Source: Actinomycetota bacterium (GTDB lineage Bacteria > Actinomycetota > Humimicrobiia > Humimicrobiales > Humimicrobiaceae). Taken from it: 64,000 bases of DNA. Each line of letters begins with the position of its first letter. The stretch's first letter is position 1. Of this stretch, positions 1,553 through 17,331 are shown one piece after another. Both the position numbers and the translations under genes were made by a program. The DNA is taken from assembly GCA_018400395.1 (NCBI GenBank), contig JAGYMN010000001.1, positions 2,354-66,353 of the forward strand, given 5' to 3'. The notes under the pieces are model-generated. The model was not told where the DNA came from. It saw nothing but the letters and a program-made list of their open reading frames with translations, and did not search any database.

Positions 1553-2353
1553 TCACTTTAATTCTATTAGTTTGTCCAATCCGTATGTAAAATTTGACAG
1601 TCTGTCTATATTACTTACTGCCATAATGACTCCAGGATAAAATGATGACCTGTCAATACTGTCATGTCTTATTAAGAGAGTCTGCCCTCTTGCACCAAAT
1701 ATTACACTCTGATGTGCTACCAGGCCGGGAAGTCTTACGCTATGAATATTTATTCCTTCGTAATACCCACCCCTGCTGCCTTCGATATTTTCTTTTTCAT
1801 TACTTTTAAGCCTCTTTTTATTAAATATTATCTTTTTTGAGATAATATCCGCAGTAGCAATGGATGTGCCCGATGGAGAATCCTGCTTTTTATCATGATG
1901 CATCTCAATTATCTCGCAATTATCAAAATAACCTGCAATCATCTCTGATAATTTCATCATTATAACAGCACCAATTGCAAAATTTGGTACAATAAATACT
2001 CTGGAGTTTGATTTAGCAGCCATCTTTTCTATTCTTTTCAGAAAATCTCTCTGAAGGCCCGATGTTCCTACAATAATATCTATACTATTTTCAATTGCCC
2101 ATGTAATGGATTTTGCGGCTATATCTGCTGCAGTAAAATCTATTATTAGATCCGGGTTTTTTTTCTTAATCTCATCATAGGAATCAGTTACACTGAAATC
2201 CGTCTTTTCGATACCCAGGATTTTTCCTGCATTTAGTCCTGTACTGCGCTTATCGAATCCTGCAACAAGTTTTATATCTTCTTCCTTAACCAATTCTTTC
2301 GATATAGCTTTTCCCATTTTACCGCATATTCCAAAAATGGCTATCCTTTTCAT
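1553..2353 (-). CDS. dapB: 4-hydroxy-tetrahydrodipicolinate reductase
   Basis: 266 aa; N-terminal Rossmann motif IFGICGKMGK; EMHHDKKQDSPSGTS motif typical of DapB. Confidence 0.9.
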   Translation of the reverse strand: MKRIAIFGICGKMGKAISKELVKEEDIKLVAGFDKRSTGLNAGKILGIEKTDFSVTDSYDEIKKKNPDLIIDFTAADIAAKSITWAIENSIDIIVGTSGLQRDFLKRIEKMAAKSNSRVFIVPNFAIGAVIMMKLSEMIAGYFDNCEIIEMHHDKKQDSPSGTSIATADIISKKIIFNKKRLKSNEKENIEGSRGGYYEGINIHSVRLPGLVAHQSVIFGARGQTLLIRHDSIDRSSFYPGVIMAVSNIDRLSNFTYGLDKLIELK

Positions 2354-3657
2354 ATTTTTAAGCCTTTCATATTTTTACCAATCATAACTGTATTGAAATT
2401 ATCGGGTAAGAAATATTTTTCAACAACCCTGTTTATGTCAGATACTTTTATCTTATCTATTTTCTTTAATATCTGGTCGATAGTCAAAACCTTTTTATCG
2501 AATAACAAAGACTTCCCGAGCCTGAACATTCTGGAGCTTATATCTTCAACTCCAAGGACTATGTTCCCTTTAATATTTTCCCTTGCTATTTCCATTTCTT
2601 CACTGGATATACCCTTTTTCCTTATATTCTCTATTTCTTCATTTATTAACATAAGAATCTTATTCATATTTCCTGCTGAGGAGGCAGAATAAATAAATAA
2701 GAGACCGGTATCACTGTAATTTACATTATTTGCTGATATGTTATACGCCAGCCCTTCTTCTTCCCGTATTTTCTGAAAAAGCCGGCTGCTCATACTGCCT
2801 CCTAAAAGACTTACGAATAAAGTAAGCGGATAACGGTCGCTATTGCTTCTTCCACATCCCGGACCTCCTATACACATATGCACTGCCTTGCTCTTCCCGT
2901 AATGAATCTTCCTGCTTCCAACGGTCCTTGAAGGCCATTTTATTTCAACCGATTCAATGCCATGACTGTGATATTTTGATTTATCAGAGGCCTCTTTTAC
3001 CATTTTAACAAGGCTGTTATGTTCTACATTCCCTGCTGCAGAAATTACCATGTCATTTAAACCAAATTTTTTAGAAAAATAGGAACTTACTTCTTTTTTA
3101 TTTATTTTTCTCAGAGTTTTTTTTGAACCCATTATAGGCAGTGATAATGAATGCCCATTGAATACCTCAGAAAAAAAATGGTTTAATAGTATTTCCGATG
3201 GGCTATCTTCCATCATTTTTATTTCTTCAGTTATTACTCTTTTTTCAGTTTCAATATGTTCGGAAAAAAAAGATGGATTACATATGATATCAAGAAGGAG
3301 ATCCATGCATCCGGTTAGATTTTCGTCTATAAAATCTGCATATACACAGCAGTATTCTTTATCAGTAAAAGCATTAAATTCAGCACCCATGGCATCAAAT
3401 TCAACAGCAATATCTTTATAACTTCTGTTATTTGTGCCTTTGAATATTAAATGTTCAATCAGATGTGTTATTCCGTTATTTTTACTGTTTTCATCTCTGG
3501 AGCCGGCTTGTACCCAGAAACCAAGCGATATTGATCTAAAATACGGAATGCTTTCACTAATTATCCTTATTCCGTTACTCAGCTCGGTAATCTTATAATT
3601 ATCAAAACTACTGCTTCTTTTTATTGCTATCTTGCTATCAACTCCAAACTGCTTTAT
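2350..3657 (-). CDS. M16 family (insulinase/pitrilysin-like) zinc peptidase; start codon non-canonical/uncertain
   Basis: ORF track gives 2350..3390 (346 aa) from first ATG, but in-frame upstream sequence with no stop encodes NYKITELSNGIRI...GSRDENSKNNGITHLIEHLIFKGT (HxxEH zinc-binding inverted zincin motif). No ATG/GTG/TTG in that stretch; candidate ATA start at 3655-3657. Synteny pnp-M16 peptidase as in Bacillus (pnpA-ylxY-mlpA). Confidence 0.7.
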   Translation of the reverse strand: MKQFGVDSKIAIKRSSSFDNYKITELSNGIRIISESIPYFRSISLGFWVQAGSRDENSKNNGITHLIEHLIFKGTNNRSYKDIAVEFDAMGAEFNAFTDKEYCCVYADFIDENLTGCMDLLLDIICNPSFFSEHIETEKRVITEEIKMMEDSPSEILLNHFFSEVFNGHSLSLPIMGSKKTLRKINKKEVSSYFSKKFGLNDMVISAAGNVEHNSLVKMVKEASDKSKYHSHGIESVEIKWPSRTVGSRKIHYGKSKAVHMCIGGPGCGRSNSDRYPLTLFVSLLGGSMSSRLFQKIREEEGLAYNISANNVNYSDTGLLFIYSASSAGNMNKILMLINEEIENIRKKGISSEEMEIARENIKGNIVLGVEDISSRMFRLGKSLLFDKKVLTIDQILKKIDKIKVSDINRVVEKYFLPDNFNTVMIGKNMKGLKI

Positions 3658-3658
3658 A

Positions 3659-7247: not shown

Positions 7248-8257
7248 TTAAAAAATTACAATATTTTCTGTAAAATTTTTATTAAAACTTTTAGTATCTT
7301 CGATATATAAACCTTTTTTTAATCTGTGCAGCGCAATTATATTACCTTCCAGGGATCTTATTGCTATGACCCTTCCCAGATTATCCTCCGAAACCCTGAG
7401 TTCATTTAAAAAACATGATAATTTCTTACTATCCGTATCAATAATCTCTGTCCTTAACGGGCTGCCATCTATTATTCTTTTCTCATTTTCTTTTCTTACG
7501 TAAACTGACGGGTTTTTATCAAACAGATTTCCCAAACTCATTATTCCTCTTTCATTTACAGGAACCTTATTAAGTTTGGCCATATAAATCATTTCTTTTA
7601 TGCTTCTTGCATGTTCAATTTTAAAATCTCCTATATCTGTCCTTATAAGTCCTGCAAGTGCTGCTCCTGTTCCGTATGTCTCTCCCATATCGTTCGCAAG
7701 AGACCTTATGTAGGTTCCCGCACTGCATTTTATTTTAAGAATCAATAAATTTCTTTCTATCCTCAGGATATCCATATTATAAATCTCTATTTCACGATAA
7801 TTTCTCTTTATCTCTACTCCCATTCTTGCAAATCTATACAGGGGTTTACCCCCGTGCTTGACTGATGAATACATTGGAGGTAATTGCCTTAACCTCCCTT
7901 TAAAGTCTCCCAAAATATTATTTAAAATATTTTTATTAAGTTCTTGAACTTTTTCTTTCCTTATTACTTTCCCATCAAGATCCCATGTATCTGTCTGTAT
8001 TCCGAATTTTAATAAAGCAATATATTCTTTAGGAAGCCCAATAAATTCGCTGGAAATTTTTGTACCCTTATTTATAAGAAGGATCATCAGACCAGAAGCT
8101 GCAGGGTCAAGAGTACCGGTGTGTCCAATTTTTTCTAAAAAAAAACTTTCCTTATTCCTCTTATTACATCATAGGAAGTTATGCCTGATGGTTTATATGC
8201 AAGGATTATACCATTAAAACCCTTTAATAACCCTGAACGCCCGTCTTTTCCAATCAT
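7248..8257 (-). CDS. truB: tRNA pseudouridine(55) synthase TruB, interrupted by a -1 homopolymer frameshift
   Basis: ORF track 7248..8087 lacks N-terminus. Own translation: ATG at 8257 gives MIGKDGRSGLLKGFNGIILAYKPSGITSYDVIRGIRKVFF* (stop 8135); next frame continues LEKIGHTGTLDPAASGLMILLINKG… (catalytic Asp motif GHTGTLDP). Frames join if the A9 run at 8137-8145 (T9 on coding strand) were 10 nt. ATGA overlap with nrnA stop. Confidence 0.85.
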
Positions 8258-9619: not shown

Positions 9620-12190
9620 TTATATAATTTCAAAAAGTTCCAGTATATCATTTTGCTCTATAGACTGATAATTAACAATTCTTATACCACACTCATATCC
9701 TGCAGCTACATTCTTTACATCTTCCTTGAATCTTTGAAGACTTTCTACTTTACCTTCATAAATAATCGAGCCGTTCCTGATTACACGTACCATATCGCCT
9801 CTCTCAACTGAACCTTCAGTAATGTAGCAGCCGGCTATTTTCCCAATTTTAGAAAACTTAAATATTTCTCTTACTTCAGCTTTTCCTTTTTCAACTATCT
9901 TTTTTTCTGGTTCCAGAAGACCCTCGAAGGCAAGTTTTATATCATCTATAAGTTTATATATTATTGCGTAGGTCCTTATATCCACTTTCTCCCTTAAGTT
10001 TAGAGAAGTTGCTGTAGCTGTTGGGACAACTCCAAAACCTACTATAATCGCACTGGAAGCACTTGCCAGAAGGATATCACTTTCTGTAATGGCACCTATG
10101 CCCTTGTGAATTATTTCTATTTTTATTTCATCCGTTTCAATTTTTTTAAGGGATTTATCTACTGCATCCAATGAACCTTCTGATTCTGCCTTGAGTATCA
10201 ATTTTAATTTTTTTAACTCACCCTGTTGTGACATCTCTGAAAGGTTTTCAAGTGTCAGTATCTTTCTGGAACTGCCCATCTTCATAACTTTTTTATCATA
10301 ATCTCTTTTTGAAAGAAGGTCTTTTCCTACTTTTTCATTTTTAACCACAAAAAGTTTATCCCCTGCCTTTGGAAGAGATGAAAATCCCGTCATTTCTACA
10401 GGACTTGAAAGTGAAGCTTCTTTTAAGTCTATGCCATTTTCATCTCTTATCGTCCTTATTCTGCCGTATGAGTCTCCTGTTACAAATGAGTCTCCTACTT
10501 TTATTTTGCCTCTCTTCACTATTAGGGAACCAATTGGACCCATTCCCTTATCAAGCCTGCTTTCAATTATTATCCCTGTTGCCACAGCATCCGGATTACC
10601 TTTCAGATCCTGCATATCTGCTACAAGAAGGATCATTTCCAATAAATCATCAATATTCTTGTTATTTTTTGCAGAGATCTCAACAACAATGGTATCACCG
10701 CCCCATTCTTCTGTAACCAGCCCGTGTTCGGTAAGCCCCTGTTTTATTCTTTTTGGATCTGAATCTGGCAGATCTATTTTATTTATCGCTACAATTATTG
10801 GAACATCTGCATCTTTTGCATGGTCTATCGCTTCAACAGTCTGCGGCATAATACCATCATCTGCTGCAATTACTATTACTGCTATATCTGTAACTCCTGT
10901 ACCTCTTGCCCTTATAGAAGTGAAAGCTTCATGACCGGGTGTGTCTATGAATGTAATCTTTCTCTTATTATATTCTATCTGATATGCACCAATATGCTGT
11001 GTTATTCCACCGGCTTCACTACTGGCAACTTTAGTTTTCCTTATTGAATCAAGAAGTGTGGTTTTACCATGATCAACATGACCCATTACCGTAACAATAG
11101 GAGCCCTTTTTACCAGTTCTTCCTCGGAATCCTTATAAACTTCCTCCATCTTTTCTTCAAATCCAATTATTCTGTATTTAAAACTATATTCATTTGACAG
11201 AAATTCTAGCAGATCTTTACTCGGTGACTGATTTATTGTAAGTACTTCACCCATTTTAAAAAGTAAGCTTATTATTTCACTTGAAGGTATGTTTACCTTT
11301 TCAGAAAGCTGTTTTATTGTGATACCTTCGTGTACTTCTATGATCTTCTTTATTTCAGGTCTTTTTTTCCTAATTTTTTCAGGTTCCTTTGCCTTGCTCT
11401 GTCCAGAAGGTTTGCTTTCCTTTCCAACTTTAGTGCGCTTTTTCTGCAGGAATTTTGCCTTTAGTCTCCCGCTCTTCTCCTCTTTGTCAAGTTCTTTATC
11501 AAGTACGCTTCTTATACTTTTCTTTTTTTCTTCTTCCCAAACTACTCTTTTATTAGAAACCTTTTTTGTGCTAATAAATTTATCTTCTTCCAGGTCTATT
11601 GAATCTTCTATGCTCTCCCTTATTGCATCCTCTTCTTTAAGAGATTTCTTCCTGTCCCGCACTGCCCTTGCAGCATGTTTCCTTTCAGATTTATCTTCCT
11701 TCTTCTCTTCTTCTTCTTCGATTTTTTTAGCCTCTTCGAGAGCTTTCTTCTCTTCTTCTTTCTTTTTTGCTTCTTCTTCGGCCTTCTTTTTTGCTTCTTC
11801 TTCGGCCTTCTTTTCTGCTTCTTCTTTTCTTTTAGCTTCCTCTTCTGCTTTTCTTGATTCTTCAGCTTTCTTTTTTACTTCCTCTGCTGCCTTTCTTTTT
11901 GCAGCTTCCTTTTCTTTTTTATCCTGCTGTCTTTTTTTCTTCTCGGCTTCTATTGCTTTTTTCTTTTCTTCCTTAGCTCTCTCTTTTTCCCTTGATTTTT
12001 TCTCCAGGGCTTCCTTTTCTTTTCTCTTTGCCTCTTTTTTAATAGCAATATCAATTTTTTTAACCTGTGAATCGTTAAGTACCGACATCTCTCCTTTTAT
12101 GGCAATGCCAAGGCTATCACAGATATAAAAAATATCATTTATATCTAATTTTTTTTCTTTTGCTAAATCAATAACCTTAATATCTATCAC
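9620..12190 (-). CDS. infB: Translation initiation factor IF-2
   Basis: 856 aa; GHVDHGKTTLLD G-domain, K/E-rich low-complexity N-terminal region, conserved C-terminal beta-barrels. Confidence 0.95.
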   Translation of the reverse strand: MIDIKVIDLAKEKKLDINDIFYICDSLGIAIKGEMSVLNDSQVKKIDIAIKKEAKRKEKEALEKKSREKERAKEEKKKAIEAEKKKRQQDKKEKEAAKRKAAEEVKKKAEESRKAEEEAKRKEEAEKKAEEEAKKKAEEEAKKKEEEKKALEEAKKIEEEEEKKEDKSERKHAARAVRDRKKSLKEEDAIRESIEDSIDLEEDKFISTKKVSNKRVVWEEEKKKSIRSVLDKELDKEEKSGRLKAKFLQKKRTKVGKESKPSGQSKAKEPEKIRKKRPEIKKIIEVHEGITIKQLSEKVNIPSSEIISLLFKMGEVLTINQSPSKDLLEFLSNEYSFKYRIIGFEEKMEEVYKDSEEELVKRAPIVTVMGHVDHGKTTLLDSIRKTKVASSEAGGITQHIGAYQIEYNKRKITFIDTPGHEAFTSIRARGTGVTDIAVIVIAADDGIMPQTVEAIDHAKDADVPIIVAINKIDLPDSDPKRIKQGLTEHGLVTEEWGGDTIVVEISAKNNKNIDDLLEMILLVADMQDLKGNPDAVATGIIIESRLDKGMGPIGSLIVKRGKIKVGDSFVTGDSYGRIRTIRDENGIDLKEASLSSPVEMTGFSSLPKAGDKLFVVKNEKVGKDLLSKRDYDKKVMKMGSSRKILTLENLSEMSQQGELKKLKLILKAESEGSLDAVDKSLKKIETDEIKIEIIHKGIGAITESDILLASASSAIIVGFGVVPTATATSLNLREKVDIRTYAIIYKLIDDIKLAFEGLLEPEKKIVEKGKAEVREIFKFSKIGKIAGCYITEGSVERGDMVRVIRNGSIIYEGKVESLQRFKEDVKNVAAGYECGIRIVNYQSIEQNDILELFEII
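11761..11832 (-). repeat. In-frame 24-nt tandem repeat (~3 copies, tcttttttgcttcttcttcggcct on + strand) encoding AEEEAKKK units in the IF-2 N-terminal linker
   Basis: Directly visible: unit at 11761-11784 repeated exactly at 11785-11808 and imperfectly at 11809-11832; protein shows KKAEEEAKKKAEEEAKKKEEE. Confidence 0.8.
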
Positions 12191-12221
12191 TCCTATCTAA
12201 AGATAATAAGTAATACATGTT

Positions 12222-13283
12222 CTAGGACCCTTCTTCTGTTTCTTCAGACTTACCCATTATTCTTTCCTCTCTTGCCTCAGCAAGCTCTTCTTCAAACTGT
12301 TTTTCACTCTTTATGTCTATCTTCCAGCCTGTAAGCCTGGCAGCAAGTCTGGCGTTCTGGCCTTCCCTTCCAATGGCAAGAGAAAGCTGATCATCTGAAA
12401 CCACTATAAGGGAAAATTTATTATCTTCATCTATAAGTACTTTATTCACCCTTGCAGGACTAAGCGAGTTTTTTATATATGCAACTACATCCTGGCTGTA
12501 ATCTACTATATCTATTTTTTCCCCATTAAGCTCATTTACTATCATCTTCACCCTCGAACCTTTCGGCCCCACGCATGCACCTACCGGATCCACATTTTTT
12601 TCGTTAGACCTTACTGCTATTTTCGTTCTGTAACCAGCTTCCCTGGCAATACTCATTATCTCCACAACACCTTCATATATTTCAGGTACTTCAAGCTCGA
12701 ACAACTTTCTTATAAGACCGGTATGTGTCCGTGACACTATTACCTGGGGCCCTTTGGTTGTCTTTCTCACATCAGAGATATAACACTTTATCCGGTCACC
12801 ATGTCTGTATCTTTCTCCGGGTGCCTGTTCATACGGAGGTAAAAGTGCTTCCACTTTTCCAAGATCTACCAGCGTAAAACGTGAATCGCTCTGCTGTATT
12901 ATTCCTGTTACGAGATCGCCCACTCTGTCTTTAAATTCGTCATACATTATCTCTCTCTCAGCTTCTTTGATCCTCTGCTTTATGACCTGCTTTGCAGTCT
13001 GTGCAGCTATTCTCCCAAAGTTGTCGGGTGTAACCTCTATTTCATTATTTTCACTTTCATCTTCGCCTTCATTTTCAATTATTTTAAATACCCTTATATT
13101 ACCGCTTTTATTATCTATATCTATTCTGCAATCATATTCTACCTGGTAGTTTCTTTTGTAGGCTGAAGCAAGCGCTACTTTAAGCGCTTCTATAATGGTA
13201 TCCATTTTTATACCTTTTTCTTTTTCAAGCTCAGCCAGAGCTGATATTAGTTCCTTATTCACTGAAACCACCTGTAAATTCAA
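12222..13283 (-). CDS. nusA: Transcription termination/antitermination factor NusA (short form, no AR repeats)
   Basis: 353 aa; S1 and KH domains, TTG start with AAGGA SD; followed by infB. Confidence 0.9.
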   Translation of the reverse strand: MNLQVVSVNKELISALAELEKEKGIKMDTIIEALKVALASAYKRNYQVEYDCRIDIDNKSGNIRVFKIIENEGEDESENNEIEVTPDNFGRIAAQTAKQVIKQRIKEAEREIMYDEFKDRVGDLVTGIIQQSDSRFTLVDLGKVEALLPPYEQAPGERYRHGDRIKCYISDVRKTTKGPQVIVSRTHTGLIRKLFELEVPEIYEGVVEIMSIAREAGYRTKIAVRSNEKNVDPVGACVGPKGSRVKMIVNELNGEKIDIVDYSQDVVAYIKNSLSPARVNKVLIDEDNKFSLIVVSDDQLSLAIGREGQNARLAARLTGWKIDIKSEKQFEEELAEAREERIMGKSEETEEGS

Positions 13284-13297
13284 ATTTGTCCTTAATC

Positions 13298-13330
13298 AAA
13301 AAAATAGTGGGTTGCTCCCACTATTTTTTT
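13298..13330 (-). terminator. Intrinsic-terminator-like hairpin in nusA leader (A7-TAGTGGGA-gcaa-CCCACTA-T7 on minus strand); candidate attenuator
   Basis: Perfect 8-bp stem with 4-nt loop followed by U7 on the coding (minus) strand, 15 nt upstream of the nusA start and downstream of the promoter-like element; also flanked by A-run (bidirectional geometry). Confidence 0.6.
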
Positions 13331-13353
13331 CAACCTTTTAAAATTTCGTTAAA

Positions 13354-13383
13354 AGTATAGCACAAAAAAAGTAAAAGTTGCAA
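13354..13383 (-). promoter_or_regulatory. Sigma-70-like promoter for nusA-infB operon: -35 TTGCAA (13383..13378), 18-nt spacer, -10 TATACT (13359..13354)
   Basis: Minus-strand sequence TTGCAActtttactttttttgtgcTATACT between recD2-like stop and nusA. Confidence 0.5.
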
Positions 13384-13439
13384 ACATTATTTCGAATTTA
13401 GCCGAACAGGTTAACAGACAGGCGGACGGGACTTCATTA

Positions 13440-15611
13440 TTAAAGATTTTGAAGCATTTCTCTGAGGCCTGTGAATCTTTTTTCTACAACATTTTTATTA
13501 ACCGCCATTCCAATAGCTTTCTTGCTCCCTATTAAAATTGCCAGTTCCCTGGCTCTTGTCAATGCCGTATAAAGAAGATTCCTCTGGAGAAGCATGTAGT
13601 GCGATGTAAGCAGGGGAATAATTACACATCTAAACTCTGAACCCTGGGATTTATGTATAGATATTGCATATGAATGATTAATTTCATCTATTTCATAAAA
13701 ACTGTATTTTATTATCCTTCCATCAAAATTTATGTGCAATTCATTTATTTCATTATCAATTTTATGAATTATTCCTATATCACCGTTATATATTTCTTTT
13801 TCATAATTATTCTTCAGCTGGATGACCCTGTCTCCTGTCCTGAATACCCTGTTTCCATAATATAATCCACCCTCCCCGGGATTAATTGCATCCTGTATTC
13901 TTAAATTCAGGTTTATAACCCCGCATATTCCCTTATTCGTAGGTACAAGTACCTGGACATCTCTTAGAGGATCCATATGTAACCTCGAAGGTATTTTATC
14001 TGTTAAAAGATTGATAATAAGATCAACTGTTTTTTCCGGATCATTTTTTTCTATAAAGTAAAAATCCCCGGCTTCAGAATTTTTTATATAAGGGAATTCC
14101 CCATCCCTTACCCTGTGTGCATTTCTTATAATCTGGCTGCCGCCTTCCTGACGGTATATCCTTTTAAGCTCTGCAACAGGTATTACACCAGAGCGGATCA
14201 GGTCCCCAAGAACATATCCTGGACCAACTGGAGGCAGCTGGTCTATATCTCCCACAAATATGAGATTAGTATTTTCTTTAAAGGCAGACAGGAGATTTTT
14301 TGTAAGTCTTATGTCCAGCATTGAAGCTTCATCTATTATTACGGTGTCCGCTTCAATGGGATTTTTATCATTTTTCAAGAATTTATTCAGTTTAGGATTA
14401 AAATTTAGAAGCCTGTGTATAGTCTTTGATTCCCTTCCTGTTGTTTCAGTCATTCTTTTTGAGGCTCTTCCCGTAGGTGCCGCCATTAGTACTTTTTTAT
14501 TTTCACTTTCAAGAATTTTTATAATAAAATTTAGTATTGTACTTTTTCCTGTTCCCGGACTTCCAGTTATTATTATTATTTTTTCCATAAGGGCATTTAT
14601 TATGGATTCAACCTGTATGTCATCAAGTTCTATATTCTTTAATTTAGCAAGTTCCATTATTATTTTTCTGTAAGAAGATTTATCTCTTTTTGCCTTCCCA
14701 TCACTAAATTTACTATTTATAATTTCCTGTATTTTTTCCCCTACATACTTTTCAGCGATATAAAGGCCTTTCAGATAGACCCTTCTTATATCACCGTCAT
14801 CCATAATAATTATTTTTTCTTCTCTCCCAAGCTCGTCAATAGCATTATTTAATAGCGGTAGCCCCACTCCAAGGAAATCAAGAGAGCTGTCTATTATACT
14901 TTCATATGGAAGGTAGCAGTGCCCTCCATCCTCTGCTCTGCGAAGTATATATATTATTCCGGACTTTACCCTGAAAATCGAATCTCTGGGTATTCCGGCT
15001 CTGCCGGCAATATCATCTGCAATTTTAAAACCTATTCCAAATATATCCTCTGCAAGGCGGTACGGGTTTACCTTAATAACATTCTCAGCATTTTCACCAT
15101 AAGTATTATATATTTTCATAGCATATGTATTTGATATGCCGTAAGATTGCAGGGTCATCATTACATTTCTTGTATTTCTATGTTTCTGCCATGACTGCAT
15201 TATCTGTTTTATTCTTTTTTCCCCTATTCCTTCTATACATGAAAGGCTCTCGGGGTCATTGTCGAGAACATTGATTGTATTTTTTCCAAAATAATCAACT
15301 ATTCTTGAGGCCATGGCCGGCCCTATTCCTTTAATCACTCCAGAGCCGAGGTAATCCTCAATTCCCTTTTCCGTAACAGGAATACTTGCACTTACCGATG
15401 ATACCTCAAATTGTTTTCCATAGGTCCTGTTTACTGTCCATTTTCCCTTTACTTCGAGTTCTTCACCGCACTGGAGCTCAAATACATTACCAACTATAGT
15501 CACATATGTGTTATCTGTCATCCTGAGTTTACCAACCATATAACCACTTTCAGGATTTTTAAACACTATCTTTTCAAGTATCCCATTTATTGTTGATTGA
15601 CGGTTTTCCAT
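13440..15611 (-). CDS. recD2: ATP-dependent RecD-like DNA helicase (RecD2/SF1 family)
   Basis: 723 aa; N-terminal OB/HhH region, Walker A GSPGTGKST, SF1 helicase motifs, C-terminal SH3-like. Confidence 0.85.
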   Translation of the reverse strand: MENRQSTINGILEKIVFKNPESGYMVGKLRMTDNTYVTIVGNVFELQCGEELEVKGKWTVNRTYGKQFEVSSVSASIPVTEKGIEDYLGSGVIKGIGPAMASRIVDYFGKNTINVLDNDPESLSCIEGIGEKRIKQIMQSWQKHRNTRNVMMTLQSYGISNTYAMKIYNTYGENAENVIKVNPYRLAEDIFGIGFKIADDIAGRAGIPRDSIFRVKSGIIYILRRAEDGGHCYLPYESIIDSSLDFLGVGLPLLNNAIDELGREEKIIIMDDGDIRRVYLKGLYIAEKYVGEKIQEIINSKFSDGKAKRDKSSYRKIIMELAKLKNIELDDIQVESIINALMEKIIIITGSPGTGKSTILNFIIKILESENKKVLMAAPTGRASKRMTETTGRESKTIHRLLNFNPKLNKFLKNDKNPIEADTVIIDEASMLDIRLTKNLLSAFKENTNLIFVGDIDQLPPVGPGYVLGDLIRSGVIPVAELKRIYRQEGGSQIIRNAHRVRDGEFPYIKNSEAGDFYFIEKNDPEKTVDLIINLLTDKIPSRLHMDPLRDVQVLVPTNKGICGVINLNLRIQDAINPGEGGLYYGNRVFRTGDRVIQLKNNYEKEIYNGDIGIIHKIDNEINELHINFDGRIIKYSFYEIDEINHSYAISIHKSQGSEFRCVIIPLLTSHYMLLQRNLLYTALTRARELAILIGSKKAIGMAVNKNVVEKRFTGLREMLQNL

Positions 15612-15618
15612 CTGTATA

Positions 15619-17331
15619 TTATTTTTTTATATCGCTTGATATAAAATCTTTTACAAATTTGACTATATCTTTTGGATTTATTTCAAATTGCTTTCCATTT
15701 TTACGCAGCTGTACCTCGATCAACCCTTCATCAAGGTACTTTCTTCCCAGTACAATTTTTAACGGTAGACCAAGCAGATCTGAATCTTTAAATTTTATAC
15801 CGGCACTTACTTCTCTGTCATCGTATAGAACTTCTATTCCGCTGTCTAAAAGTTTTTCATATATTTCTTCTCCGGCACCCACAAGCTGCTCTTCCTTTAA
15901 ACTGGTTATTAAAAGATTAACTGTATAGGGGGCTATTGCGGTAGGCCATATTATACCTTTATCGTCATGCATCTGTTCTATAACCGCAGATAATATTCTG
16001 GTTATCCCCATTCCGTAACAGCCCATTACAAAAGGTTTCAACCTCCCATCCCTTCCGAGGAATCTCGCTTCCATTTTTTCGCTATATTTCTTTCCCAGTT
16101 TGAATATATGACCTATTTCTATTCCCTTGTCGATTTTCAGTTTCGAACCGCATCTTTCACATATATCTCCTTCTACAGGGTACGAAAAATCTCCATATGC
16201 TTTTATATTCACATCTCTTTGGATGTTTACATTTCTAAGATGAAAGTCTTTTTTGTTTGCACCTGTTATAACGCCTTTAACCCCTTTTAGCATCCTGTCT
16301 GCATATATTTCAATTTCCGGATCAAGTCCTACCGGGCCAAGATAACCTATTGGATATCTTTCATCTGAATTTTCGTACAGCCTTAATTCTTTTCCAAGAA
16401 ATTTTTCGGCTTTCGAAATATTAAGCTGTCTGTCACCCATTAATATAAAGGCATATATTTTTTCCTTTTCATCAGTTAACAGTATTGTCTTGACAGTATA
16501 TTTTTTTTCTATCTTCAAAAAATCTGCAAGTCTATCTATATCAGTTATTCCGGGAGTGCTGACCTTTTCTATTTCTCCAGCATTTTTAAAAGTTTCTTCT
16601 TTTTCCATAAGTGGCCTGAACCCTGCCATTTCTATATTTGCAGAGTATCCACATTCAGGACAATATATAATGGTCTCCTCTCCGTCTCCTGCAAGTACCA
16701 TAAATTCATGGGAGGATTTCCCGCCTATTATTCCCGTATCCGCTTCAACGGTCTTATACTTGAGACCCATTCTTTCCATTATCCTTGTATAAGCAGAATG
16801 CATTTTATTATATATTTCATCCAGATCACTGTCATTCTCACAGAAGCTATATGCATCCTTCATTATAAATTCCCTTGCCCTTAAAAGGCCGTATCTCGGC
16901 CTGATCTCATCTCTGAACTTTACCTGGATCTGGTAAAGATTAAGCGGCAGGTCCCTGTAGGATTTTATATCCAGGTATGCAAGATAGGTCATTATTTCTT
17001 CGTGTGTCGGACCGAGGCAGAAAGAACGCCCGTTCCTGTCTTTCAGCCTGAATAGTTCTGGCCCATATTCACCCCAGCGTCCCGATTTTTCCCAGAGGTC
17101 TGAAGGCTGAAGTACTGGCAAAAATAGTTCCAGCGCACCTGTCCTGTCCATTTCTTCCCTTATAATATTTTCAATCTTCTGAATAACCCTCTTGCCAGCA
17201 GGAAGAAAAGCATATATACCAGATGCTATTTTCCTTATTAATCCTGCCCTGACGGTAAGCGCGTGGCTGGATATCTCTGCTTCTCTTGGTTCTTCTTTTA
17301 AAGTTGGTATAAATCCCTGTGAATATCTCAA
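15619..17331 (-). CDS. proS: Proline--tRNA ligase (bacterial type with editing domain)
   Basis: 570 aa; class II aaRS motifs, ProRS N-terminus MRYSQ…TLKE.P…AE..SH.L..RAG. Confidence 0.95.
   Translation of the reverse strand: MRYSQGFIPTLKEEPREAEISSHALTVRAGLIRKIASGIYAFLPAGKRVIQKIENIIREEMDRTGALELFLPVLQPSDLWEKSGRWGEYGPELFRLKDRNGRSFCLGPTHEEIMTYLAYLDIKSYRDLPLNLYQIQVKFRDEIRPRYGLLRAREFIMKDAYSFCENDSDLDEIYNKMHSAYTRIMERMGLKYKTVEADTGIIGGKSSHEFMVLAGDGEETIIYCPECGYSANIEMAGFRPLMEKEETFKNAGEIEKVSTPGITDIDRLADFLKIEKKYTVKTILLTDEKEKIYAFILMGDRQLNISKAEKFLGKELRLYENSDERYPIGYLGPVGLDPEIEIYADRMLKGVKGVITGANKKDFHLRNVNIQRDVNIKAYGDFSYPVEGDICERCGSKLKIDKGIEIGHIFKLGKKYSEKMEARFLGRDGRLKPFVMGCYGMGITRILSAVIEQMHDDKGIIWPTAIAPYTVNLLITSLKEEQLVGAGEEIYEKLLDSGIEVLYDDREVSAGIKFKDSDLLGLPLKIVLGRKYLDEGLIEVQLRKNGKQFEINPKDIVKFVKDFISSDIKK

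What the first reader, a model, noticed from the sequence alone, without database searches (positions are those of the whole stretch)
13284..13439. nusA-infB operon leader: strong promoter followed by an intrinsic terminator hairpin 15 nt before the nusA start - candidate attenuator/autoregulatory element
Seen: TTGCAA-18-TATACT promoter right after the recD2-like stop, then on the transcribed strand A7-TAGTGGGA-gcaa-CCCACTA-U7 (perfect 8-bp stem plus U-tract), then SD and the TTG start of nusA. There is no room for a promoter between hairpin and start codon. Every nusA-infB-rbfA-truB-ribF-rpsO-pnp transcript must therefore read through a canonical terminator. In E. coli the equivalent operon is autoregulated by NusA at leader termination sites; a comparable mechanism is plausible here. 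rimP, normally between promoter and nusA, is absent.
Basis: partly seen in the sequence, partly recalled or inferred. Interest (0 to 1): 0.5.

Follow-up and report, generated by a model that had tools for sequence, protein, structure and literature searches.

The report
Conserved leader terminator before nusA
The hairpin in front of nusA is a real, strongly conserved early transcription stop signal of an already described kind (the "rimP-leader" attenuator found before this operon in many bacterial phyla), here sitting directly before nusA because this uncultured actinobacterial lineage has no rimP gene in the operon.

Summary
On the minus strand there is TTGCAA-18-TGnTATACT (13383-13354). About 24 nt after the predicted start site comes a hairpin TAGTGGG/AGCAA/CCCACTA (13323-13305) flanked by A7 and U7. 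The stem is 7 bp with a 5-nt loop, not 8 bp with 4 nt. The nusA start is GTG 13262 (SD AGGTGG), 35 nt after the U-tract, not TTG 13283.

The element is not novel in kind. It is the "rimP-leader" attenuator of Naville & Gautheret 2010: a short G-rich/C-rich GGG...CCC terminator stem plus U-tract, with no antiterminator, in front of rimP-nusA-infB.

- A covariance model built only from 30 published examples hits the 64-kb window at this site alone.
- In 49 related Humimicrobiia-like genomes the extended -10, GTGGG, CCCACT and five Ts of the U-run are invariant, while loop and spacers drift.
- The unit stays with nusA when the upstream gene changes (recD2, hydrogenase genes, a divergent ORF, polC, dnaN).
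- rimP is missing from the window and from 52 related loci.

The most likely function is NusA-stimulated premature termination, that is, negative autoregulation as shown in B. subtilis. This is inferred here, not demonstrated. It is a new member of a known kind and of modest interest.

The parts
13378..13383 (-). -35 hexamer TTGCAA
   Evidence: The aligned position in relatives is mostly TTGAAT or TTGTAT.
13354..13362 (-). Extended -10, TG-C-TATACT
   Evidence: the only promoter-like site in 11500-16500 with a TG extension. T, TG and TATA are invariant in 49 related leaders.
13338..13347 (-). Predicted transcription start (G 13347, 7 nt after the -10) and conserved box GAAATTTTAA at about +1 to +10
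   Evidence: The start position is inferred from the -10. Three Ts and one A of the box are at least 90% conserved in 49 relatives. The box is absent from Clostridia and Vulcanimicrobiota leaders. Its function is unexplained.
13324..13330 (-). A7 tract that can pair with the U-tract
   Evidence: It is not conserved in relatives, so the apparent two-way symmetry in this genome is not a family feature.
13317..13323 (-). 5' arm TAGTGGG (G-rich arm)
   Evidence: GTGGG is invariant in 49/49 relatives. It matches the published rimP-leader consensus.
13312..13316 (-). Loop AGCAA
   Evidence: Mean column identity is 0.43 across relatives, and loop length varies from 4 to 7 nt.
13305..13311 (-). 3' arm CCCACTA (C-rich arm)
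   Evidence: CCCACT is invariant in 49/49 relatives.
13298..13304 (-). U-tract (T7). A terminated RNA would be about 50 nt.
   Evidence: Five Ts of the U-run are invariant in 49 relatives. The length is counted from the predicted start at 13347.
13268..13273 (-). Shine-Dalgarno AGGTGG of nusA
   Evidence: AGGTGA/AGGTGG is conserved 5-7 nt before the start codon in relatives.
12222..13262 (-). nusA (346 aa from GTG 13262): NusA_N, S1, KH, KH
   Evidence: Pfam. Relatives at 72-96% identity align from this codon.
9620..12190 (-). infB, the next gene of the controlled operon, 31 nt after nusA
   Evidence: infB lies downstream of nusA in the relatives whose loci reach that far.

Best explanation
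This is a rimP-leader-type transcription attenuator placed directly before nusA.

Proposed mechanism: RNA polymerase starts at a conserved extended -10 promoter (about position 13347). It transcribes roughly 25 nt and then the short hairpin UAGUGGG-AGCAA-CCCACUA followed by U7. A fraction of polymerases terminate there, releasing an RNA of about 50 nt. The rest read through into nusA-infB-rbfA and the genes beyond. No alternative (antiterminator) fold or leader peptide is available, so the terminated fraction must be set by a trans-acting factor.

The most likely factor is NusA itself. NusA stimulates termination at weak hairpins, which would give negative feedback on the operon that encodes it. 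The stem is short, its base is A-U rich, and its GUGGG/CCCAC core is held constant in sequence. This suggests a deliberately sub-optimal, specifically recognised terminator.

Shown here: anatomy, conservation, position inside the transcribed leader, linkage to nusA, and family membership. Inferred: actual termination, NusA dependence, and the recognition mode.
For: Anatomy and folding. No alternative structure is predicted for the 49-nt leader (13346-13298).

Family match:
- The published description is a conserved GGGc...gCCC terminator stem plus U stretch, 4-130 nt before the first gene of rimP-nusA-infB, with no antiterminator and NusA proposed as the effector (PMC2965389).
- Published instances such as GGAAGTGGGTTAATGCCCACTTTTTTT and AGAGTGGGTTTTCCCACTCTTT appear.
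- Model R1, built only from 30 published instances of other phyla, hits the window only at 13298-13330 (27.9 and 23.9 bits, E 7e-4 and 6e-3; next best 15.6 bits).
- Across 80 loci R1 hits only the single leader site of L001-L063.

Structure across phyla: 6 of 9 pairs show compensatory changes, and 0/500 shuffles reach the observed covariation score.

Conservation within the lineage:
- 49 distinct leaders have an invariant TG-n-TATA, GTGGG, CCCACT and five Ts of the U-run.
- Loop identity is 0.43 and spacer identity 0.58.

Linkage to nusA: the same promoter-hairpin unit sits before nusA when the upstream gene is recD2, a hypA/hydrogenase cluster or a divergent ORF. It sits before rimP-nusA after polC (Clostridia) or dnaN (Vulcanimicrobiota).

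[quoted passage not shown] E. coli operon autoregulation is cited in PMC2965389.
Against: - There are no transcript data for this organism, so termination and read-through are not observed.
- The U-tract here is perfect (U7) and the hairpin can extend to 14 bp with the A-tract. It could therefore be a strong, factor-independent terminator, unlike the weak-hairpin or interrupted-U class reported as NusA-dependent in B. subtilis.
- Within the lineage the core pairs never vary, so they give no covariation support. Structural support comes only from the cross-phylum set.
- Sequence-level conservation of the stem shows that something reads the sequence, but not that it is NusA.
- I could not read the primary B. 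subtilis paper. That evidence is second-hand.
Confidence: 0.7

Rival explanations
1. The hairpin is simply the terminator of the upstream proS-recD2 transcription unit, and nusA is expressed from elsewhere.
For: No other terminator-like hairpin lies between the recD2 stop (13440) and the hairpin. Read-through from recD2 would therefore also meet it, and it may serve this role as a side effect.
Against: - The conserved promoter lies between recD2 and the hairpin.
- The hairpin is retained before nusA where recD2 is not the neighbour: L033, L037, L043-L048 and L053-L063. In L049 the upstream ORF is divergent.
- It matches the operon-specific rimP-leader model.
Confidence: 0.04
2. The promoter plus hairpin is an independent small-RNA gene (about 50 nt) with its own trans-acting function, and nusA is expressed only by leakage through its terminator.
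For: - The promoter-to-hairpin spacing is tight (32-42 nt from the -10), while the hairpin-to-nusA distance ranges from 35 to 189 nt.
- The 5' end of the RNA carries a conserved box.
Against: - The unit is always in the same orientation, immediately before nusA or rimP, across several phyla.
- No Rfam family matches. The SpF25 hit at 26.8 bits, against a 48-bit threshold, rests mainly on a poly-A/hairpin/poly-U match.
- Outside the hairpin the RNA is not conserved between phyla.
Confidence: 0.08
3. It is a constitutive, factor-independent partial terminator that only sets a fixed low read-through level, or insulates the operon from upstream transcription, with no feedback.
For: It has a perfect U7 and a stable hairpin. 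No sensing structure is present.
Against: A purely structural terminator should drift by compensatory change. Here GTGGG/CCCACT is invariant in 49 species whose loops and spacers diverge, and it is shared across phyla. This argues for sequence-specific recognition. Feedback on this operon is documented in B. subtilis and reported for E. coli in work cited by PMC2965389.
Confidence: 0.13
4. Another operon product such as IF2 or RbfA, or RimP encoded elsewhere, binds the conserved stem and controls termination or mRNA stability.
For: RimP feedback was raised as a possibility in PMC2965389. Stem sequence conservation fits any specific RNA-binding protein.
Against: rimP is absent from the operon, from the 64-kb window and from 52 related loci, while positive controls score E 1e-60 to 2e-8, yet the stem is invariant. 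No evidence points to IF2 or RbfA.
Confidence: 0.05

Closest known systems
rimP-leader attenuator (Naville & Gautheret 2010, Genome Biol 11:R97; PMC2965389)
   Same: - A short terminator hairpin with a G-rich 5' arm and C-rich 3' arm (GGG...CCC core) followed by a U stretch.
- It lies in the 5' leader of the operon containing nusA-infB, a few tens of nt before the first gene.
- No antiterminator is present.
- The stem is conserved in sequence.
- The window hairpin is the only hit of a model built from published members.
   Different: - The first gene here is nusA, not rimP.
- The closing c-g pair of the published GGGc...gCCC is replaced by unpaired A/A in this genome. Most relatives have GGGC on the 5' side but no pairing partner.
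- The host lineage (class Ca. Humimicrobiia, low-GC Actinomycetota) does not appear in the parts of the published list I read (parts 1-2 of 4). The only actinobacterial entry there was Rubrobacter.
B. subtilis nusA autoregulation by NusA-stimulated termination in its 5' leader (Mondal et al. 2016, as cited in PMC12288461)
   Same: An intrinsic terminator sits in the leader of the nusA operon, with no antiterminator. It is the likely functional model for this element.
   Different: That case was shown experimentally, and the operon starts with rimP (ylxS). Bacillaceae leaders appear longer and may carry a second, downstream terminator (the Geobacillus entry suggests this). Here there is a single hairpin about 25 nt after the start site, and NusA dependence is untested.
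E. coli metY-rimP-nusA-infB leader terminators
   Same: The same operon is autoregulated by NusA. The hairpin CTGGGCTTTAGGCCC-T7 before rimP belongs to the same motif family.
   Different: E. coli has an upstream tRNA gene and a tandem terminator with an antiterminator-like structure. None of that is present here.

Membership tests
rimP-leader attenuator | Located in the 5' leader of the rimP-nusA-infB operon, same strand, downstream of the promoter | tested here: met
   A conserved extended -10 promoter lies upstream and nusA-infB downstream. rimP itself is missing, so the element precedes nusA.
rimP-leader attenuator | Hairpin with a G-rich 5' arm and C-rich 3' arm carrying the conserved GGG(c)...(g)CCC core | tested here: met
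   UAGUGGG/CCCACUA. This is the only significant hit of model R1, built from 30 published members (27.9/23.9 bits against 15.6 for the next hit). The inner c-g pair is not formed in this genome.
rimP-leader attenuator | U stretch immediately after the stem | tested here: met
   T7 at 13304-13298. Five Ts of the U-run are invariant in 49 relatives.
rimP-leader attenuator | Distance of 4-130 nt to the start of the first gene | tested here: met
   35 nt to GTG 13262 (14 nt to the non-conserved TTG). In relatives the range is 35-189 nt from the end of CCCAC; counted the same way the window is 44 nt.
rimP-leader attenuator | No antiterminator or ligand-sensing structure, and no leader peptide | tested here: met
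   The leader folds only into the hairpin. No ORF spanning the hairpin is conserved: none in 26 of 49 relatives, and mixed frames in the rest.
rimP-leader attenuator | Stem is a true RNA helix (covariation) | tested here: met
   In the cross-phylum set, 6 of 9 pairs show double changes and 0/500 shuffles reach the observed score. Within the lineage the core is invariant, which is uninformative.
NusA-autoregulated leader terminator (B. subtilis type) | Termination efficiency at the leader hairpin rises with NusA concentration | not testable with these tools
   This needs in vitro transcription with and without NusA, or NusA depletion. Only the literature precedent is available.
NusA-autoregulated leader terminator (B. 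subtilis type) | Sub-optimal terminator (weak hairpin and/or interrupted distal U-tract) | tested here: inconclusive
   The stem is short (7 bp, -9.2 kcal/mol) with an A-U base, but the U7 tract is uninterrupted and the A7 extension brings it to -15.7 kcal/mol.
Any curated Rfam family | Score at or above the family gathering threshold | tested here: not met
   There are no hits at gathering threshold in the window or in 10 rimP-containing loci. The best sub-threshold hit is SpF25, 26.8 bits against 48.

The most novel reading that the evidence does not exclude
The rimP-less Humimicrobiia may act as a natural experiment. A whole class keeps the GUGGG/CCCAC stem letter-perfect with no rimP in the operon. 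That would point away from RimP and towards NusA, or RNA polymerase itself, reading the stem sequence. The element may also be bipartite in this lineage: a conserved 5'-terminal GAAAUUUUAA box could act as a second recognition or pause site, giving a variant mechanism not described for the rimP-leader.
Probability: 0.2. Interest if true: 0.5.

Novelty: new member of a known kind. Interest (0 to 1): 0.25.

Why it matters
The finding extends the most widespread known bacterial attenuator to an uncultured, deep-branching low-GC actinobacterial class. It also shows that the element is tied to nusA rather than to rimP, since it persists unchanged where rimP is gone from the operon. That modestly strengthens the long-standing but only partly tested idea that NusA senses its own leader. 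It offers a compact template of about 50 nt for testing why the GUGGG/CCCAC sequence, and not just a hairpin, is required. For annotating this genome, it fixes the operon's promoter, leader and the true nusA start codon.

Tried and rejected
- **Rfam:** searched the window at gathering threshold, the intergenic region at E<=10, 10 rimP-containing loci, and the Serpentinicella leader. No family matched. The SpF25 sRNA hit (E 0.01-0.02, 26.8 bits against 48) rests mainly on an A-run/hairpin/U-run match. A literature search for SpF25 was uninformative.
- **Built-in terminator scan:** it did not list the hairpin, probably an artefact of extending the stem through A7/T7.
- **Leader-peptide attenuation:** rejected, because no conserved ORF spans the hairpin.
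- **Antiterminator:** none is predicted.
- **recD2-terminator reading:** rejected by the variable upstream neighbours.
- **Within-lineage covariation:** uninformative, because the core never varies.
- **rimP search:** tblastn with 9 RimP queries and a RimP HMM found nothing in the window or in 52 loci. Whole-genome absence could not be tested.
- **High-GC Actinomycetes (Frankia and others):** no motif upstream of rimP-nusA.
- **Source look-up:** an exact-protein look-up of RecD2 found no source contig.
- **Primary literature:** the Mondal 2016 paper is not held.

Full report
**What is in the sequence**

All genes around the finding are on the minus strand: proS (15619-17331), a RecD2-type helicase (13440-15611), the gap up to the TTG-started nusA ORF (13284-13439), nusA, infB (9620-12190), rbfA, a DHH/DHHA1 protein, truB, ribF, rpsO and pnp.

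Read on the minus strand, the gap contains these features:
- -35 TTGCAA at 13383-13378
- an 18-nt spacer ending in TG (13362-13361)
- -10 TATACT at 13359-13354
- A7 at 13330-13324
- TAGTGGG at 13323-13317
- AGCAA at 13316-13312
- CCCACTA at 13311-13305
- T7 at 13304-13298

Two details need correcting.

1. The core stem is 7 bp with a 5-nt loop. It extends to 14 bp if A7 pairs with U7.
2. The nusA start is GTG 13262, not TTG 13283.
   - Pfam NusA_N begins at residue 11 of the TTG-started ORF.
   - A strong SD (AGGTGG, 13273-13268) lies 5 nt before GTG 13262.
   - In about 50 relatives the aligned codon is GTG or TTG behind AGGTGA/AGGTGG, usually with an in-frame stop inside the SD that forbids any upstream extension.
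   - So the U-tract ends 35 nt before nusA, not 15 nt.

**Is it more than chance?**

- The core hairpin folds at -9.2 kcal/mol (z -3.8). With the A/U arms it folds at -15.7 kcal/mol (z -6.3; 0 of 200 shuffles do as well).
- AGTGGG-N3-9-CCCACT occurs once in 64 kb, against 0.00 expected.
- The promoter hexamers alone are not significant in this AT-rich DNA: 22 sites were found against 14.9 +/- 4.0 expected. This is the only site with a TG extension, and conservation settles the question (see below).
- The built-in terminator scan did not report the hairpin. It probably extends the stem through A7/T7 and then finds no T tail.

**Relatives**

A scan of one genome per species with the NusA protein returned 52 loci from uncultured Actinomycetota at 72-96% NusA identity. 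Some are named Ca. Humimicrobiaceae or Ca. Hydromicrobium. It also returned Clostridia, Vulcanimicrobiota and high-GC Actinomycetes at about 50% identity.

Every Humimicrobiia-like locus whose upstream DNA is held and readable has the same hairpin before nusA. L039 is masked by Ns there, and L052 holds no upstream DNA.

An alignment of 49 distinct leaders shows:
- invariant columns at T-TG-n-TATA (the extended -10), GTGGG, CCCACT and five Ts of the U-run
- mean identity of 0.96 for each arm, against 0.43 for the loop and 0.58 for the spacer between the -10 and the hairpin
- an upstream A-tract that is not conserved, so the element is directional (nusA sense) even though it looks symmetric in this genome

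The promoter is conserved and lies upstream of the hairpin (32-42 nt from the -10 to GTGGG). The hairpin is therefore inside the transcribed leader. Only 35-45 nt, mostly SD, separate it from nusA in most species.

**Not the recD2 terminator**

The upstream neighbour is recD2 in most loci, but it varies:
- a hypA/[NiFe]-hydrogenase cluster in L037, L043-L045 and L048 (hypA after other genes in L047)
- a divergently oriented ORF in L049
- polC in Clostridia
- dnaN in Vulcanimicrobiota

The promoter-hairpin unit is always there, immediately before nusA, or before rimP-nusA in the other phyla. The element travels with nusA.

**What it is**

The same AGTGGG...CCCACT hairpin turned up 470-630 nt upstream of nusA in the Clostridia and Vulcanimicrobiota loci, in front of rimP. 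That led to the literature.

[quoted passage not shown] Its features are:
- a short terminator whose stem carries an unusually conserved GGGc...gCCC motif, G-rich on the 5' arm and C-rich on the 3' arm
- a following U stretch
- a position 4-130 nt before the first gene of rimP-nusA-infB
- no visible antiterminator
- a motif seen at no other terminator
- proposed recognition by a protein, most probably NusA

Their supplementary lists include, among others:
- GGAAGTGGGTTAATGCCCACTTTTTTT (Nostoc)
- GAAAGTGGGGGATCCCCACTTTTTT (Chlorobium)
- AGAGTGGGTTTTCCCACTCTTT (Carboxydothermus)
- GAGTGAGC...GCTCACTC (lactobacilli)
- GATGGGC...GCCCATTTTTT (beta- and gamma-proteobacteria)

**Formal membership test**

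I aligned 30 published hairpins from other phyla, none from this lineage, and did three things with them.
- The proposed helix shows compensatory changes in 6 of 9 pairs, and 0 of 500 shuffles reach the observed covariation score.
- I built a covariance model, R1, from them and searched the whole window with filters off. The only significant hits are 13298-13330, at 27.9 bits on the + strand and 23.9 bits on the - strand (E 7e-4 and 6e-3). The hairpin is palindromic, so both strands score. The next hit is 15.6 bits (E 0.47).
- Over 80 loci (0.6 Mb), all 95 hits with E<=1 fall on the one leader hairpin of L001-L063. There are none elsewhere and none in the high-GC Actinomycetes.

No Rfam family covers the element. 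The sub-threshold SpF25 hit rests mainly on a poly-A/hairpin/poly-U match.

**rimP**

Typical RimP ORFs lie between the hairpin and nusA in the Clostridia loci. Shorter RimP-like ORFs do so in Vulcanimicrobiota.

tblastn with nine RimP queries found nothing in the window or the 52 related loci. A RimP HMM gave a best E of 0.12 there, and that hit was to NusA itself. Held-out positive controls scored 1e-60 to 2e-8.

So in this lineage the "rimP-leader" sits directly before nusA. Whether rimP exists elsewhere in these genomes could not be tested.

**How it most likely works**

Shown here:
- a conserved promoter
- a leader of about 50 nt that folds only into the hairpin
- an invariant stem and U-tract
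- no conserved leader peptide
- no alternative structure

Inferred: part of the polymerases terminate at the U-tract, and the fraction is set by a trans-acting factor. The best candidate is NusA, giving negative autoregulation of nusA-infB. Three lines of evidence support this.
[quoted passage not shown] 2016). The primary paper was not available.
- NusA represses the E. coli operon, according to references cited in PMC2965389.
- Conservation of the stem letters, rather than only its pairing, over 49 species and several phyla implies sequence-specific reading.

The persistence of the invariant stem without an operon-encoded RimP argues mildly against the alternative RimP-feedback idea raised in the 2010 paper.

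One caveat: with a perfect U7 and an extendable stem, this copy may be a strong terminator on its own. How enough read-through is achieved for essential genes is not explained by sequence alone.

**Unexplained**

A box GAAATTTTAA at the predicted +1 to +10 (13347-13338) is conserved in this lineage but not in Clostridia or Vulcanimicrobiota leaders. It could be an initial-transcribed-region signal, a second protein contact or a DNA operator. I have no test for it.

**Verdict**

The element belongs to a known and widespread attenuator family. It is a new member, in a new lineage and in a rimP-less arrangement, not a new kind of element. Interest is modest.

Noticed in passing
window 8087-8256, minus strand (T9 run at about 8137-8145): truB appears split by a frameshift at a run of nine Ts. 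The N-terminal part starts at ATG 8256 and ends '...IRGIRKVFF' followed by TAG. The catalytic-motif part ('FFLEKIGHTGTLDP...') continues in another frame into the listed ORF 7248-8087. One extra T would give a single intact ORF. This could be an assembly indel, a pseudogene, or slippage on the T-run.
   Followed up: partly
window 3391-3658, minus strand (upstream of ORF 2350-3390): The conserved N-terminus of the M16 peptidase, including the HLIEH zinc motif, is in frame upstream of the first ATG/GTG/TTG. That stretch has no canonical start codon back to the pnp stop. A non-canonical start (ATA, ATT or CTG) is therefore likely.
   Followed up: partly
window 13338-13347, minus strand; aligned columns in A1: A box GAAATTTTAA at the predicted +1 to +10 of the nusA leader is conserved across 49 Humimicrobiia-like leaders. 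It is absent from the Clostridia and Vulcanimicrobiota leaders that share the hairpin. Its function is unknown.
   Followed up: partly
L064-L080 (Frankia, Parafrankia, Dermatophilus, Actinopolymorpha), 1 kb upstream of nusA: High-GC Actinomycetes, several with a RimP ORF directly before nusA, show no rimP-leader hairpin by regex or by model R1. Within Actinomycetota the element therefore seems confined to deep, low-GC branches, apart from the published Rubrobacter case.
   Followed up: partly
L058-L063 (Vulcanimicrobiota / Ca. Xenobia), ORFs between hairpin and nusA: The RimP-like ORFs here are short (about 107-142 aa as open frames) with acidic tails. They match the RimP HMM only at E 1e-8 to 1e-11, so they may be truncated RimP variants.
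   Followed up: no
window 12191-12221: nusA and infB are separated by only 31 nt. The ylxR/ylxQ-type small genes that sit between them in many Firmicutes are absent (the comparison rests on general knowledge).
   Followed up: no
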